Positions 1 through 6,000 of a DNA stretch of 64,000 bases are shown one piece after another. The stretch is from Perna viridis (Eukaryota): assembly GCA_037379345.1 (NCBI GenBank), contig CM074520.1, forward strand, positions 16,409,488 to 16,473,487, written 5' to 3'. The stretch's first letter is position 1; the number at the start of each line of letters is the position of its first letter. The position numbers are program-made.

Positions 1-3000
1 AATGCAAGCCAGACCTGAACACATCCAAATGTGTCCCAACATCGGCCATTATGCGCTGTAGAAGATCATACATGTATGTAAGCTATGTCTATGATCGAAA
101 CTATCAATTAAAAACATCATTCAAAAAAATTATTCATAGCCTCCTAAAATCAGTCAGAGACTTGTCAAATTTTGTTATTCACTAATTCAGAGATTATTAT
201 AGATCTCAATTTATGATACCAAATACTCTTAATCTATCGACCTCTTTTTTATATCAATTAAATATATTAAAAATGTGTCCCAACTTAAGCCATGGATGTA
301 TCAACAATTTTGAATGCTAGTATTTGTATTGGCCCAAATCAATGCATTTTTCTTAACTGTTTTCATACTGAATTCTCCTTCCACAATGTAAAATTAAATT
401 GCTACTCTGACATCAAAAGGTTATTCAGAGACAAATCTGGGTACATTTAGGTCAAAATAACAAGTCAGAATTCATGCACTGTCATGGCTCATGTGTTTCA
501 AAGGTCTAAACTAAAGACATTAAGTTACATGTATGCATTGCAAGTATGTCTACGATTAAGAACATCAATCAAAAATGTCAATCGAAGTGATTATTATTTA
601 GCTCCCTGTTTCTTGCCATGCTATGATTTTGAAATAAATATTAATATATGAAATGCTAAAGCCTGGGGTAAAGAAACAATCGAAATACTCAGTCATGTCA
701 GTGCTTTACCCACGCTAAACCTATTCCTCGTCATTCATTACAGAAAAATTGACGATTGAATACGGAATTACTATTGATGGGAGATATGAAAAGTCACAAA
801 CCTAGTTTCTAAACAAATGCCGCCTGAGTAATGCAATTGTAAACTTTTCTAAGACCGATTTTCGACCGCCATCTAATCAAGCTTGTGTTGTTGCTAAGGA
901 CGTCTAAAATTTTGTGTAAATCGTGACGTAGAACACACAAGAACCTGTATGACAGATGGCGGGAAAGGGCTTCTTCTTGATTGTATCACGAACAATGACT
1001 GACAACACACATATTGTAACCTGCACCTTTAGAAAAGAGAGGATTTTGTTTTTTCGATATAGAGAACATTATTTAAACATATCAACTCGCGTTGTTAGAT
1101 TATATTGTAAGGGCCCTGTTATGGCATATGGTCGTCCCATTAACTTTTCGTCCCTTTATCCCTTTATGATTCAGGGCTCCTTAGGGGCATATAAGCAAAA
1201 TAAACATAATGTGAGTGTATAAAGTAGAGATAATTAATGAGGATATTTAATAGACCCTTTTGTGCTAATGTTGGGGTAGTCGATGAACATTTTTTGAGGT
1301 CTCAGTATCGTATTAATTTTCCCATAGACTTCTATAGTGAAGTGCATATTTTTAGGATTTTTTAAAAAATATGTAAATTGATTCAATAAAACTTTCACTT
1401 ATGTAGCATTTCTAAGTACATGTGAAAAAATAATTTCCTGCAAAGAAAATAGGGTGAGTCCACGAAGATCGGACAGAAAAGTAGTCGAACTATAAATAGC
1501 CATTTTCCCTACTTTCACTTTCGTTTTGCACTCACCAAACCAACCTTTTCAGTGGAACATTTTTATGATATTATGTTAGATTTTCTCTTAAAAAAGTTCT
1601 TCATCTTCCAGTGTGATGTTTGCTCTATTTTATAAGTCACTGTTCATATCTTTTGACAAAACATTAGTTTGTAGAGAGGCAAAAGGAAAATGCACTATAT
1701 TTTTATAGCATCCATGTTTTGACGAACACCCGCTCAGGGATATGCAATACGATACTGGTACCTATTACTAATAAACATTTCAATATAATCATAAAAGTTG
1801 TTGTTTGTCTGCTAGAGTATTCATTTTGATACTGAAAATTCAGAATATCATTGCCCTGCTGCAAACATGAGTTTTCTATTAAAATTTTTATATAGGTACC
1901 CTATTCCAGGCATAAGACTAATATCTCAATGTTAGCCAGAAAATATTACTTTTGATAAAAAGCTGCTGCATTAGTCAAACTAAGCAAATTTGTGGTTTAT
2001 TCTGACATGGTAGATACATGAGCTGTACTATGAGTTCCAAATCATTATTCAATCCCCACTTGTGAGTTCCATATATGGAAATATTAATATCCGAACCTCC
2101 TTTTTTGTCTGTAACTCAAGGGAGCCTCTTGTTTAAAGTAAGTATATGTACCGGTACAACCAACTGTTTTAAACTATAGATATGGTCATTTCGATTGTAA
2201 TAAATCCAGAAAAAATTATACCAATATCATAGTTTTAAAAAAATATAGCTTTTCATATGCAGAAAATACAGATTTTAAGCCATTTTGGTACCCCAGGCAG
2301 ATACAAATGGACCTCAATATAACAGGAAAAGGATTTTTTCTTTAAAACAGATAGTTATGATGCAAGAAAAATAGTTTACTGGTGTAAATATTATAATAAC
2401 AATTGTCTGCTTTAGATACTTTTTGAAAAAATTCAGTTTTTATATGAAAAAACACCATTATTTTTCTTGCCGCATTAGAATCTGTCCTTTTGAACCACTA
2501 AAAAAAGTCCACTAAAAAATTGGCTGTTGACTTTTGTGACATTTCTGTGTTTAAATCAACCACACAGTTATATGGCAACTCATTTTAGCTATTTATTTGG
2601 AAGAAAAACAAAAAATTAAAAAAATATTCATTTTTTCATACATAAGAGGCAATGTATGGAAAATGACTATTTTCAAGTCTTAACCACATACTTAAAATGT
2701 GTTGTAACTTGAAAAGTATCCTTTATGCAGGAGTATTACTTGCTTTAGGTTACCTGAATATAGATATGCTCATCATAAATAGTAAAGATAATAATTTTAT
2801 TGAACTGATATCCTACAAATTCATGAAAACAAAATGCATTTCCAAATTTGGTAAAGATTAACCATAAATGCAAAAAACCAGACCTACCATAAAAAATCAG
2901 GTTCAAAATTTGACTAATTCATCTTAAAAGTGTTACCTGCATTGGGGTACTACTTTTTCAGCTGGTAAAGACCACTTGCTGAATATCAAACTTTACTTGA

Positions 3001-6000
3001 AAAACTGGCTTACTAGGTCTCAGTATCGTATTAATTTTCCCATAGACTTCTATAGTGAAGTGCATATTTTTAGGATTTTTAAAAAAATATGTAAATTGAT
3101 TCAATAAAACTTTCACTTATGTAGCATTTCTAAGGACATGTGAAAAAATAATTTCCCGCAAAGAAAATAGGGTGAGTCCACGAAGATCGGACAGAAAAGT
3201 AGTCTTGAACTATAAATAGCCATTTTCCCTACTTTCACTTTCGTTTTGCACTCACCAAACCAACCTTTTCAGTGGAACATTTTTATGATATTATGTTAGA
3301 TTTTCTCTTAAAAAAGTTCTTCATCTTCCAGTGTGATGTTTGCTCTATTTTATAAGTCATTGTTCATATCTTTTGACAAAACATTAGTTTGTAGAGAGGC
3401 AAAAGGAAAATGCACTATATTTTTATAGCATCCATGTTTTGACGAACACCCGCTCAGGGATATGCAATACGATACTGGTACCTTGAGCATCCTCAATATA
3501 CACTTCCGTGAGGAAAATTCTTTTGTTCTACCTAAGCCCTACCTCGCAGATGTGTATATTGAGCGTGCTCACCAACTTACCACAAAAGGGTCTATAGCAA
3601 TACAAAAATATAATATTATAACCCATTCAAGTATGTTTTTGTAATGGTTTTCTTAAATTATTAATAGAAAAGTTACCATTTTTTTTCTATATATTTATAT
3701 GAGAATGAGCGTCATACAGTGTAAATACATGCTTTAAAAAAAGACCATTGGTTATTGTAACTTTTAGATGACTCGCATTCATTTCTGTTCTGGAAAAGTT
3801 CTTTAATTATATTTAGGTCAACAGGCATAAGATCCAGTGTCATTTCAATGGAGTAGAGGGAACAGAAACTTGATTTTACTACTGCCAGGAATTTATAAAT
3901 GATACACGTGTTATAAAAACATTTCAGATATTTTAACTTTCGGAGACATATTTCCACGTAACTGTTATTGTTCTTGCAGCCTTTAAATCTGATATCCTTT
4001 CTTTATCTATATAAAACCGTAAACTAATTTCTACCAGATTCACTGTAAATGGCAAATATGAAAGTCGTCTGTTGTAGAAAAATATTTTTACTTATTTGTA
4101 AGTGCTTATTGGACATATACATTTCCGATCGTTTGGTTTTCAATGCTAATGAGAGGATATGATTTCTTATTGTAAGTTTAATAAGGGACTTTATTATATA
4201 TGTGCACTCCCCACAGGCACTTGCCTCCAAAAAAAAAAAGAGTCAATCAATCCGTATACCATGTCATAAGCTGTGGTAAGGTATAGATTAAATTTGTTTT
4301 AGAGAGAAGTGCCTGTGACACTCCCTGGTTTAATTTATATTTGAGAAGTAATGGATATTTTTTTATGAAGCCATTGATGAAAGATATGTTGACTGTTAAA
4401 GAAAAAAATGTCATTGATTTACATATACTTCACCATTTAGTACTGTTTTGATTTCATTGTGTAATGAATATTTATATATATAGTACTGTGACCTGCAAAA
4501 GGGGTGCAAAAGAAAAAATACTGATAATTTAAAATGCTTTTTTTCTGTTTCAAGAAGTAGAGAAGTAGGATTTATTGGGTTAATAGTTGAAAAGCCCTGA
4601 TAATAACATTGGAATTTGCTGAGTTGTTTTTCTTCAAATCTGGTGTTCAGAAATTGAAAGAATAGGCCCCCCTCCCCGGGTTGTGCCAAAACCTACGCGA
4701 CAGTCCCGATCTCGTATTAGTAGTCAAACAAAATTATCTTGGTAATTTATGAAATGTTACCTTGCAAATTAGTTGTTTATTGTCAAAATAAAATTGAACA
4801 AGAAGCAAATGATCAACATTTTCTTGTTTCATGATGATGAATCTGTTGAAATATAATTTTATTTTTAAAATATGAGTTCAGAGATGGAGTACTTTAAATA
4901 CTTGAAAAACTTCAATGGGAGGGAATATTCGAAAATGGAAAAGTTTTTGATGAATTTAAAAACAAATGAAAAGATAGTTGAAGAAAGAAAAAGAAAGGCA
5001 GAAGATAGTCGAATCCTAGAGAAAACATGATAGTACAGACAAAAAACAAAAAAAAATTTTTCTAGTTGAATTTTTATTTGGCTAGCAAGATCAATATTCT
5101 ATTAGCCAGTATGGCAAGTTGTGAAAAAAATGGTTTCCCACAATGACTAAAAACTGATTAGATGACATTTCAACTACATTTATACCTTGAAATTTTAGAC
5201 TAATTTGAAAATTTTACAATTTCAGTACAGTAGGTAATTAACTGCCGATATACATTTCTTAAGTTTTTTTTTTCAGATTTTAAGTCGATGCTCATCAGTG
5301 TAGCTGTTTGAAGATCACTATCAAACACAGGTGTGCTAATTTATTTGTAGCATGACAGGTGATGATTTAAGGCACTACCCATTCCAGAAGGTTGATTTTA
5401 CAGACAGCCAGAATTTATTTTGGTGTTTTTAATTGTTTATCACAATTACCATCATTCATATTTAACAAGTTTTTTTAGGATATAAAACTCAATATTGACA
5501 TATTTACTGTTTGAAACTCAAGAATTTGATAAAGTACATGAAGTTCTAAAAGCTGTCCTTGGGAATATGACTGCTCCATTACTCCTGAGTCATTTGACAT
5601 ACTTTTTTTGGTTTTTGGAGAATTCACATAGGGCTTATTTTTGGTCCTCCGAACACTTTTGTTGTGGGATTTGTTTATGCAAAATACCCAGCTTTACAAT
5701 TATAAAACATTTCATTCTTTTATTTTGGCTTATCCCTAGAGTAAAAAAATATTTCTCCAATGTTGATTAGGCTTTTTACAGTCTTCACTATCGTTTTCAG
5801 GTCTTGCACAACTTAATTCTCCAGGGGAATTCTACTAGTTCCTGTGACTTTTATTAGATGTCTAAAAGTTGTTGGTGGTTGAGTCCTGTCTTTGGGATGC
5901 CTCTCTGGGATTCAATTTAAGAAATATTTCAACTATCTAATTTTAGCAGGTACCAAAATATTCCACTTGCTAAATCTCGGTTCCTTCATTTATTTCTTTA

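What the first reader, a model, noticed from the sequence alone, without database searches (positions are those of the whole stretch)
1298..3482. Young eukaryotic composite DNA transposon: two TIR-bounded direct repeats carrying 1.25 kb of apparently non-coding cargo
Seen: LTR-like 465/467-bp direct repeats differing at about 5 sites, each a self-contained TIR unit (GG...CC rather than TG...CA). A 4-bp TSD (TTGA) surrounds only the whole unit; the inner junctions (CC|TATT and ACTA|GG) have none, so it moved as one piece. Known: this matches the KolobokP lineage of the Kolobok superfamily (LTDRs near 450 bp with short TIRs, rich in bivalves, autonomous copies encoding a DDD/E transposase and a His-Me finger nuclease). 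Inference: a recently mobilised non-autonomous derivative at a non-canonical TTGA target. The origin of the interior is open: deletion derivative or captured host DNA.
Basis: partly seen in the sequence, partly recalled or inferred. Interest (0 to 1): 0.7.

Follow-up and report, generated by a model that had tools for sequence, protein, structure and literature searches.

The report
Non-autonomous KolobokP transposon in a bivalve
This is a 2.2-kb non-coding DNA transposon of the already described KolobokP type (two direct repeats, each with its own inverted ends, around a short interior) in a mussel-like bivalve genome, so it is real but ordinary.

Summary
Window 1298-3482 has two direct repeats (LTDRs): 1298-1762 (465 bp) and 3016-3482 (467 bp). 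They differ by 4 substitutions and one 2-bp indel. Each starts GG, ends CC, and has its own terminal inverted repeat, 15 of 17 bases. TTGA flanks only the whole unit; neither repeat alone has a 3-9 bp duplication.

The 1,253-bp interior shows no sign of coding. Its longest open frame is 67 codons, which 458 of 1000 shuffles reach. It has no Pfam, Rfam or tRNA signal.

The host is a bivalve: a neighbouring exon is 63% identical to a Mytilus trossulus protein.

Every structural criterion that Kojima and Bao 2022 (PMC9587614) give for KolobokP is met:
- LTDRs near 450 bp
- TIRs of 11-18 bp
- RR..YY termini
- TSDs of 3-5 bp
- non-autonomous families of 1.7-3.3 kb
- abundance in bivalves

- TTGA is not unusual for KolobokP.
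- LTDR identity does not date the insertion.
- The outer TSD does not prove movement in one piece.

No link to an autonomous partner or to other copies could be tested. This is a new member of a known kind, of low interest.

The parts
1294..1297 (.). Left copy of the 4-bp target-site duplication (TTGA)
   Evidence: Read directly. Same four bases as 3483-3486. Chance of a 4-bp match at fixed ends is 0.57%.
1298..1762 (+). Left long terminal direct repeat (LTDR), 465 bp, starts GG and ends CC
   Evidence: 98.7% identical to 3016-3482. 32.5% G+C.
1298..1314 (+). 5' terminal inverted repeat of the left LTDR; outer end of the composite
   Evidence: Matches the reverse complement of 1746-1762 and of 3466-3482 at 15 of 17 positions.
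1746..1762 (-). 3' terminal inverted repeat of the left LTDR (inner end)
1763..3015 (.). Internal region (INT), 1,253 bp, with no sign of coding
   Evidence: Longest open frame is 67 codons, reached by 458 of 1000 shuffles. The 10 longest open frames gave 0 Pfam matches better than E = 0.065, all far below the curated cut-offs. No Rfam match lies inside the element. No similarity elsewhere in the window.
3016..3482 (+). Right LTDR, 467 bp
   Evidence: Differs from the left LTDR at left-copy positions 1363, 1417, 1439 and 1640, plus a 2-bp insertion after 1486.
3016..3032 (+). 5' terminal inverted repeat of the right LTDR (inner end)
3466..3482 (-). 3' terminal inverted repeat of the right LTDR; outer end of the composite
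3483..3486 (.). Right copy of the 4-bp target-site duplication (TTGA)

Best explanation
A non-autonomous monomer (LTDR-INT-LTDR) of a KolobokP-type DNA transposon, lying in non-coding DNA of a bivalve genome about 49 kb upstream of the first mapped coding exon of a rho-GAP 7-like gene.

Shown here:
- the anatomy: two 465/467-bp direct repeats, each with its own 17-bp imperfect TIR and GG..CC ends
- a 4-bp duplication around the whole unit only
- an interior that shows no sign of coding
- a bivalve host

Inferred from the published description of KolobokP (PMC9587614):
- The element encodes nothing. It is moved in trans by the DDD/E transposase of an autonomous KolobokP copy elsewhere in the genome.
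- That transposase binds the 5' TIR of the left LTDR and the 3' TIR of the right LTDR, and a staggered 4-bp cut at the target gives the TTGA duplication.
- Because each LTDR carries both TIRs, either one could also be excised or moved alone as a solo LTDR.
- Recombination between the two LTDRs could yield a solo LTDR plus an LTDR-INT circle. Unequal crossover could yield multimers.

The interior is most likely what remains of an autonomous element's internal region after loss of the genes. This last point is a guess and was not tested.
For: Anatomy: searches give the repeats, TIR (15/17, 20/26), GG..CC ends, and a TTGA TSD around the unit with none around either repeat.

No sign of coding in the interior.

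Host: the exon at 61194-62810 is 63% identical to rho GTPase-activating protein 7-like of Mytilus trossulus, and all 7 of 7 hits are bivalve proteins.

Published criteria (PMC9587614):
- LTDRs around 450 or 660 bp
- TIRs of 11-18 bp, perfect or imperfect
- termini 5'-RR and YY-3'
- TSDs of 3-4 or 4-5 bp, with no strong target preference
- non-autonomous families of 1,738-3,261 bp in Crassostrea gigas, and 2,637 and 2,453 bp in Corbicula fluminea
- especially rich in bivalves, including five named mytilids
- the authors state that no other DNA transposon has LTDRs

A soft parallel: the INT ends share the hexamer TTACTA (1765-1770 and 3010-3015; chance 613 of 200000). [quoted passage not shown]
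Against: - No transposase or His-Me finger nuclease remnant was found in the interior. That test covered only the 10 longest open frames against Pfam.
- No sequence link to an autonomous KolobokP family could be made. The paper's consensus sequences are in closed supplements and no eukaryotic genome collection was on hand.
- Multi-copy status is unproven. There are 0 further copies in the 64-kb window, 0 exact matches of a 24-nt LTDR end in the prokaryotic genome-contig collection, and no protein relative of a 43-aa LTDR-derived frame.
- The TSD is only 4 bp. If length and offsets are left free, a match arises by chance in 8.9% of placements.
Confidence: 0.8

Rival explanations
1. Same family, different history. 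A solo LTDR inserted here and made the TTGA duplication. Later an LTDR-INT circle, or an unequal exchange with another copy, recombined into it and rebuilt the LTDR-INT-LTDR form in place. On this reading the composite never transposed as a unit into this site.
For: The source paper proposes exactly this route and notes that the TSDs stay unaltered (Discussion and Fig. 5b1 legend). Solo LTDRs match or outnumber monomers in 14 of the 19 families in its Table 2. The shared hexamer at the two INT ends would fit an INT that once existed as a circle or tandem array.
Against: It needs two events where one suffices. Nothing in the window tells the two histories apart. The circle is itself a hypothesis in the paper and has not been observed.
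Confidence: 0.15
2. An opportunistic composite of two copies of an unrelated MITE (another TIR superfamily with a 4-bp TSD, or an unclassified one). The two copies landed 1.25 kb apart and were then moved together from their outer ends, carrying captured host DNA.
For: Any TIR element can in principle be moved from the outer ends of two nearby copies. The interior has no recognisable transposon content. No Kolobok protein link was made.
Against: The repeat length falls in the constrained 450-bp class. The termini are RR..YY, the TSD length fits, the host is a bivalve, and the paper describes LTDRs as unlike any other DNA transposon. The inner junctions carry no remnant of separate 3-9 bp TSDs. 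A true two-insertion composite would usually keep one half of each as unrelated INT ends; here the INT ends share a hexamer instead.
Confidence: 0.07
3. A non-autonomous LTR retrotransposon (LARD or large TRIM) with 465-bp LTRs, copied through RNA by the enzymes of an autonomous relative.
For: Direct repeats of LTR-like size with 98.7% identity, a 4-bp TSD, and an interior that shows no sign of coding.
Against: The ends are GG..CC, not TG..CA. A 15/17 TIR is unlike LTRs, which the paper says lack TIRs beyond TG..CA. There is no TGG within the first 12 nt after the upstream repeat on either strand. The 15 nt before the downstream repeat are 53% and 47% purine, and the longest purine runs in the last 40 nt are 6 and 4. 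No tRNA gene in the window offers a primer match.
Confidence: 0.03
4. An assembly artefact: one repeat copy was wrongly duplicated, or two haplotypes were stitched together.
For: Nothing specific. It cannot be excluded from a single assembled window.
Against: The copies differ at 4 substitutions and an indel. They are separated by 1,253 bp of unique sequence, and the unit is framed by a clean TSD. The window has no N.
Confidence: 0.02

Closest known systems
Non-autonomous KolobokP families (for example KolobokP-4N1_CorFlu: 2,637 bp with 473-bp LTDRs; and the 8 non-autonomous families of Crassostrea gigas, 1,738-3,261 bp), Kojima and Bao 2022, PMC9587614
   Same: LTDR-INT-LTDR layout; LTDR length near 450 bp; a short imperfect TIR on each LTDR; RR..YY termini; a short TSD with no fixed target; no coding capacity found; bivalve host; total length in range.
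   Different: Nothing structural. No sequence comparison was possible, so I cannot say whether this is one of the 228 published families or a new one. Only one copy was seen.
Classical Kolobok superfamily elements and their MITEs (for example the Xenopus T2-MITE lineage)
   Same: RR..YY termini and a 4-bp TSD (Background of PMC9587614).
   Different: Classical Kolobok duplicates TTAA and has plain TIRs with no long direct repeats. Here the target is TTGA and the ends are 465-bp direct repeats.
Bacterial composite transposons (two IS copies around cargo)
   Same: Two self-contained TIR units in direct orientation bracket an interior and can act from their outer ends. Each unit could also move alone (paper's Discussion).
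   Different: In bacteria the transposase sits in the IS arms and the cargo is usually a selectable gene. Here the arms and this interior show no sign of coding. In autonomous KolobokP the enzymes sit in the interior.
Non-autonomous LTR retrotransposons (TRIM, LARD)
   Same: Direct terminal repeats, a short TSD, an interior without long open frames, and solo repeats and tandem arrays expected from recombination.
   Different: No TG..CA ends, no primer-binding site, no polypurine tract, and a long TIR on each repeat. The mechanism is DNA-based, not via RNA.

Membership tests
KolobokP (Kolobok superfamily) | [quoted passage not shown] | tested here: met
   1298-1762 and 3016-3482 are direct repeats, 98.7% identical, around a 1,253-bp interior.
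KolobokP (Kolobok superfamily) | LTDR length constrained to about 450 bp or about 660 bp | tested here: met
   465 and 467 bp. The paper counts 473-bp and 480-bp LTDRs in the ~450 class.
KolobokP (Kolobok superfamily) | Each LTDR has its own short TIR (11-18 bp, perfect or imperfect) | tested here: met
   15 of 17 terminal bases match, including a perfect 12-base core at 1303-1314 / 1746-1757. 1 of 200000 random segments reaches this.
KolobokP (Kolobok superfamily) | Termini 5'-RR and YY-3' | tested here: met
   GG at 1298-1299 and 3016-3017; CC at 1761-1762 and 3481-3482.
KolobokP (Kolobok superfamily) | TSD of 3-5 bp around monomers, with no strong target preference | tested here: met
   TTGA on both sides of the unit, and none around either LTDR alone. 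Chance is 0.57% at fixed ends and 8.9% with free length and offsets.
KolobokP (Kolobok superfamily) | [quoted passage not shown] | tested here: not met
   No open frame above 67 codons. 0 credible Pfam matches in the 10 longest open frames. So this copy is not autonomous. The paper accepts gene-less non-autonomous families as KolobokP, so this does not exclude membership of that class.
KolobokP (Kolobok superfamily) | Non-autonomous members: LTDRs or termini similar in sequence to an autonomous KolobokP family of the same genome | not testable with these tools
   No eukaryotic genome or repeat library was on hand. The paper's consensus sequences (Additional file 3, Data S1) are in supplements that were closed. 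The paper's main text prints no matching terminal sequence (0 occurrences of two terminal motifs).
KolobokP (Kolobok superfamily) | Repeated family with solo LTDRs and (LTDR-INT)n-LTDR multimers | not testable with these tools
   0 further copies in the 64-kb window. One isolated TIR-like 17-mer at 46962-46978 has no LTDR behind it.
KolobokP (Kolobok superfamily) | Host in one of the 7 animal phyla reported, most often a bivalve | tested here: met
   The neighbouring exon has its best match (63% identity) in Mytilus trossulus. All 7 of 7 hits are bivalves.
Classical Kolobok | TTAA-specific 4-bp TSD | tested here: not met
   The TSD is TTGA.
LTR retrotransposon (TRIM/LARD) | TG..CA LTR ends, a primer-binding site after the 5' LTR, and a polypurine tract before the 3' LTR | tested here: not met
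   GG..CC ends. No TGG in the first 12 nt on either strand. Purine fraction is 0.53 and 0.47 in the last 15 nt. That a primer-binding site starts with TGG is recalled knowledge.

The most novel reading that the evidence does not exclude
The interior is not a gutted transposase region but foreign DNA picked up between two LTDRs. That would make this a eukaryotic composite transposon carrying cargo in the bacterial sense.

The near-terminal TTACTA shared by both INT ends (1765-1770 and 3010-3015) would then record the LTDR's original insertion into a circular or tandem form of that DNA. If so, this locus and its relatives could give a direct sequence test of the untested 'LTDR-INT circle' step in the KolobokP propagation model.
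Probability: 0.1. Interest if true: 0.45.

Novelty: new member of a known kind. Interest (0 to 1): 0.15.

Why it matters
It matters little beyond annotation. The element is a tidy example of a transposon class described in 2022, with non-autonomous members of the same size and layout already reported from bivalves.

Its modest value has three parts:
- It should be masked as a DNA transposon and not called an LTR element, since LTR finders will pick it up.
- The LTDR identity should not be used as an insertion clock.
- The shared hexamer at the INT ends is a small, checkable clue to how LTDR-INT units are rebuilt. The authors and a 2026 review (PMC13565253, passage seen) say that step still awaits experimental confirmation.

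Tried and rejected
- Whole-frame translations of the interior to Pfam gave an error because they contain stop codons. I sent the 10 longest stop-free frames instead. The only matches were two chance-level ones, E = 0.065 and 0.082, far below the cut-offs. This covers only part of the interior in each frame, so it is a weak test for decayed transposase or nuclease remnants.
- Rfam at E up to 1 over 1000-3800 gave 2 weak matches, both in the right flank (3472-3579 and 3592-3639), the first overlapping the last 11 bases of the right LTDR, and both far below gathering scores. ARAGORN found 0 tRNA genes in the window.
- An exact-match scan of a 24-nt LTDR end in genome contigs gave 0 hits. That collection holds bacteria and archaea only, so only host contamination could have matched, and this says nothing about copy number in the host. 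I did not use the second scan that was allowed.
- A 43-aa frame derived purely from the LTDR found no candidate among 5.8 billion predicted proteins of 23-76 residues. A blank was expected for non-coding DNA.
- A TIR-like 17-mer at 46962-46978 was followed up as a possible second element. Local alignment of the next 480 bases to the LTDR scored 12, and 183 of 200 shuffles did as well. There is no partner TIR within 6 kb at 4 or fewer mismatches. Rejected as a second copy; it may be chance (5 hits in 400 shuffled windows).
- The LTR retrotransposon reading and the reading of two independent insertions were both considered and rejected.

Not used, because no protein exists to test: structure prediction, fold search, complex prediction, the protein atlas, the representatives search and the third protein search.

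Not checked: metagenome contigs and viral contigs (closed), and the paper's supplements (closed), which may well hold this very family.
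Full report
**What is there.** I read window 1100-3700 and ran a repeat search. Both show two direct repeats, 1298-1762 (465 bp) and 3016-3482 (467 bp), around 1,253 bp of unique sequence (1763-3015). A global alignment gives 2 transitions, 2 transversions and one 2-bp indel. That is 98.7% identity and a K2P distance of 0.0087. 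One more base is shared on each side (A before, T after), so the repeat edges carry one base of ambiguity.

Each repeat starts GG and ends CC. Its first 17 bases match the reverse complement of its last 17 at 15 positions, with a perfect 12-base core, and 20 of 26 match further in. Of 200000 random 465-bp segments of the window, 1 did as well, probably the repeat itself.

TTGA precedes the left repeat (1294-1297) and follows the right one (3483-3486). The inner junctions are CC|TATT and ACTA|GG. A scan for any 3-9 bp duplication with 0 or 1 base of offset was positive for the whole unit and negative for each repeat alone. A 4-bp match at fixed ends has a chance of 0.57%. With free length and offsets the chance is 8.9%, so the TSD supports the reading but does not prove it alone.

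**The interior.** Stop-to-stop frames in 1763-3015 reach 67 codons at most. Shuffles of the interior average 67.6, and 458 of 1000 reach 67. The 10 longest open frames gave no Pfam match better than E = 0.065, and the two weak matches lie far below the curated cut-offs. An earlier attempt with whole frames returned an error because of stop codons.

Rfam found nothing wholly inside the element at E up to 1, and the window has no tRNA gene. The interior has no similarity elsewhere in the window. This copy therefore cannot encode its own transposase.

**The host.** The only long open frame in the window, 61149-62897 on the + strand, was searched as a single exon. All 7 of 7 hits are bivalve proteins. 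The best is rho GTPase-activating protein 7-like of Mytilus trossulus, at 63% identity over 93% of the query; the next is Ostrea edulis at 40% over 24%.

A tblastn of those seven proteins against the window places residues 1-24 of the Mytilus protein at 52379-52450 and residues 12-548 at 61194-62810. The window is 31.5% G+C, has no N, and is not human. The element lies about 49 kb upstream of the first mapped coding exon. I cannot tell whether that position is intergenic or in an intron of a longer isoform.

**Comparison with what is known.** A full-text search for 'KolobokP' finds 2 papers. Of Kojima and Bao 2022 (PMC9587614) I read the abstract, Results parts 1-2, Discussion part 1 and found passages. 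They define KolobokP by these features:
- an LTDR-INT-LTDR layout
- LTDRs of about 450 or about 660 bp
- TIRs of 11-18 bp on each LTDR
- 5'-RR..YY-3' termini
- TSDs of 3-4 or 4-5 bp depending on the family, with no strong target preference

They also report 228 families in 7 phyla, found in almost all bivalve genomes analysed and including five mytilid species. Autonomous families in Crassostrea gigas are 4,022-4,748 bp and non-autonomous ones there are 1,738-3,261 bp. Solo LTDRs and multimers are frequent, and there is evidence that a single LTDR can be excised. They state that no other DNA transposon has LTDRs, and that LTRs lack TIRs beyond TG..CA.

The element here (2,185 bp, 465/467-bp LTDRs, a 15/17 TIR, GG..CC ends, a 4-bp TSD, a bivalve host) meets each structural criterion. 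A 2023 survey (PMC10294476, passages seen) says Kolobok types are almost exclusive to bivalves among molluscs. A 2026 review (PMC13565253, one passage seen) says the proposed role of the nuclease awaits experimental confirmation.

1. TTGA is non-canonical only for classical Kolobok (TTAA; Background of the paper). For KolobokP it is ordinary.
2. The 98.7% identity of the two LTDRs is not an insertion clock. In a cut-and-paste element both repeats are carried over as they are. Their identity dates the last duplication or homogenisation of the LTDR in the element's lineage. The intact TSD and TIRs argue only that the insertion is not ancient.
3. An outer TSD with no inner ones is what one-piece transposition predicts. 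It is also what the paper's circle-into-solo-LTDR route predicts.

**Rivals.**
- *LTR retrotransposon (LARD or TRIM).* The ends are not TG..CA. There is no TGG within 12 nt of the upstream repeat on either strand. The 15 nt before the downstream repeat are 53% and 47% purine, with longest purine runs of 6 and 4 in the last 40 nt.
- *Two independent insertions of one MITE.* This fails because neither repeat has its own TSD.
- *An opportunistic composite of MITEs from another superfamily.* This cannot be excluded without a partner, but the repeat length class, the termini and the host all point to KolobokP.
- *An assembly artefact.* This is unlikely given the 5 differences between copies, the unique interior and the clean TSD, but it needs long reads to settle.

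**What could not be done.** No eukaryotic genome, repeat library or supplement was available, so copy number, solo LTDRs, multimers and the autonomous partner stay untested. The window holds no second copy. A 24-nt LTDR end has 0 exact matches in the prokaryotic genome-contig collection, which is uninformative. A 43-aa LTDR-derived frame has no relatives among predicted proteins of 23-76 residues, as expected for non-coding DNA.

**Small oddities.**
- The two INT ends share TTACTA: at 1765-1770, two bases in from the INT start, and at 3010-3015, the INT end. Such a match arises in 613 of 200000 random point pairs. [quoted passage not shown] It could mark the LTDR's original target within a circular or tandem INT.
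- A 17-mer at 46962-46978 matches the TIR with 2 mismatches (5 such hits in 400 shuffled windows). It has no LTDR behind it and no partner.
- The insertion site lies inside a unit of about 160 bp with nested inverted repeats.

**Verdict.** This is a real, cleanly bounded, non-autonomous KolobokP-type transposon in a bivalve, assigned by structure with about 0.8 confidence. It is a new member of a known kind at most, and of low interest (0.15).

Noticed in passing
window 1250-1297 and 3487-3595: The transposon sits inside a unit of about 160 bp with nested inverted repeats: outer arms 1250-1268 / 3577-3595 (19 nt, 95% complementary) and an inner hairpin 3484-3513 / 3542-3571 (30 nt, 83%). The outer similarity extends to about 40 nt with gaps. 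It looks like a small MITE or hairpin element. No other copy is in the window. A sub-threshold Rfam miRNA-precursor match (E = 0.65) probably just reflects the hairpin.
   Followed up: partly
window 1765-1770 and 3010-3015: Both ends of the interior carry TTACTA, two bases in from the start and flush with the end. Chance is 613 of 200000 random point pairs. [quoted passage not shown] Its meaning is untested.
   Followed up: partly
window 46962-46978 (+): An isolated 17-mer with 2 mismatches to the LTDR's 3' TIR (read in reverse complement) and 3 to the 5' TIR. About 5 such hits are expected per 400 shuffled windows. There is no LTDR-like sequence after it and no partner within 6 kb. It is chance or a stranded terminal relic.
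   Followed up: yes
window 12580-13876: A structure of about 1.3 kb with long inverted arms (12580-12780 / 13676-13876: 201 nt, 83%; 12783-12909 / 13550-13676: 127 nt, 88%) around about 640 nt. It may be a foldback-type or long-TIR element.
   Followed up: no
window 7943-8128 and 28137-28324: Two inverted copies of a dispersed repeat of about 190 bp, 20 kb apart, 85-88% alike, with one end reading TTAAGGAGG. Probably another MITE or SINE family.
   Followed up: no
window 45821-46079; 47250-48110; 56099-56586: Three short tandem arrays with periods of about 33 bp (6 or more units), about 325 bp (3 units, 71-81% alike) and about 165-172 bp (3 units, 65-80% alike).
   Followed up: no
window 52379-52450 and 61194-62810 (+): Two exons of a rho GTPase-activating protein 7-like (DLC/STARD-type) gene. 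The large exon is 63% identical to the Mytilus trossulus protein, residues 12-548. The exons were not joined. The rest of the gene runs off the window.
   Followed up: partly
window 41733-42092 (+): An open frame of 119 codons rich in Ser, Arg and Lys, with no match to the seven fetched bivalve proteins at E up to 1e-3. It could be an upstream exon of a longer isoform, or chance.
   Followed up: no
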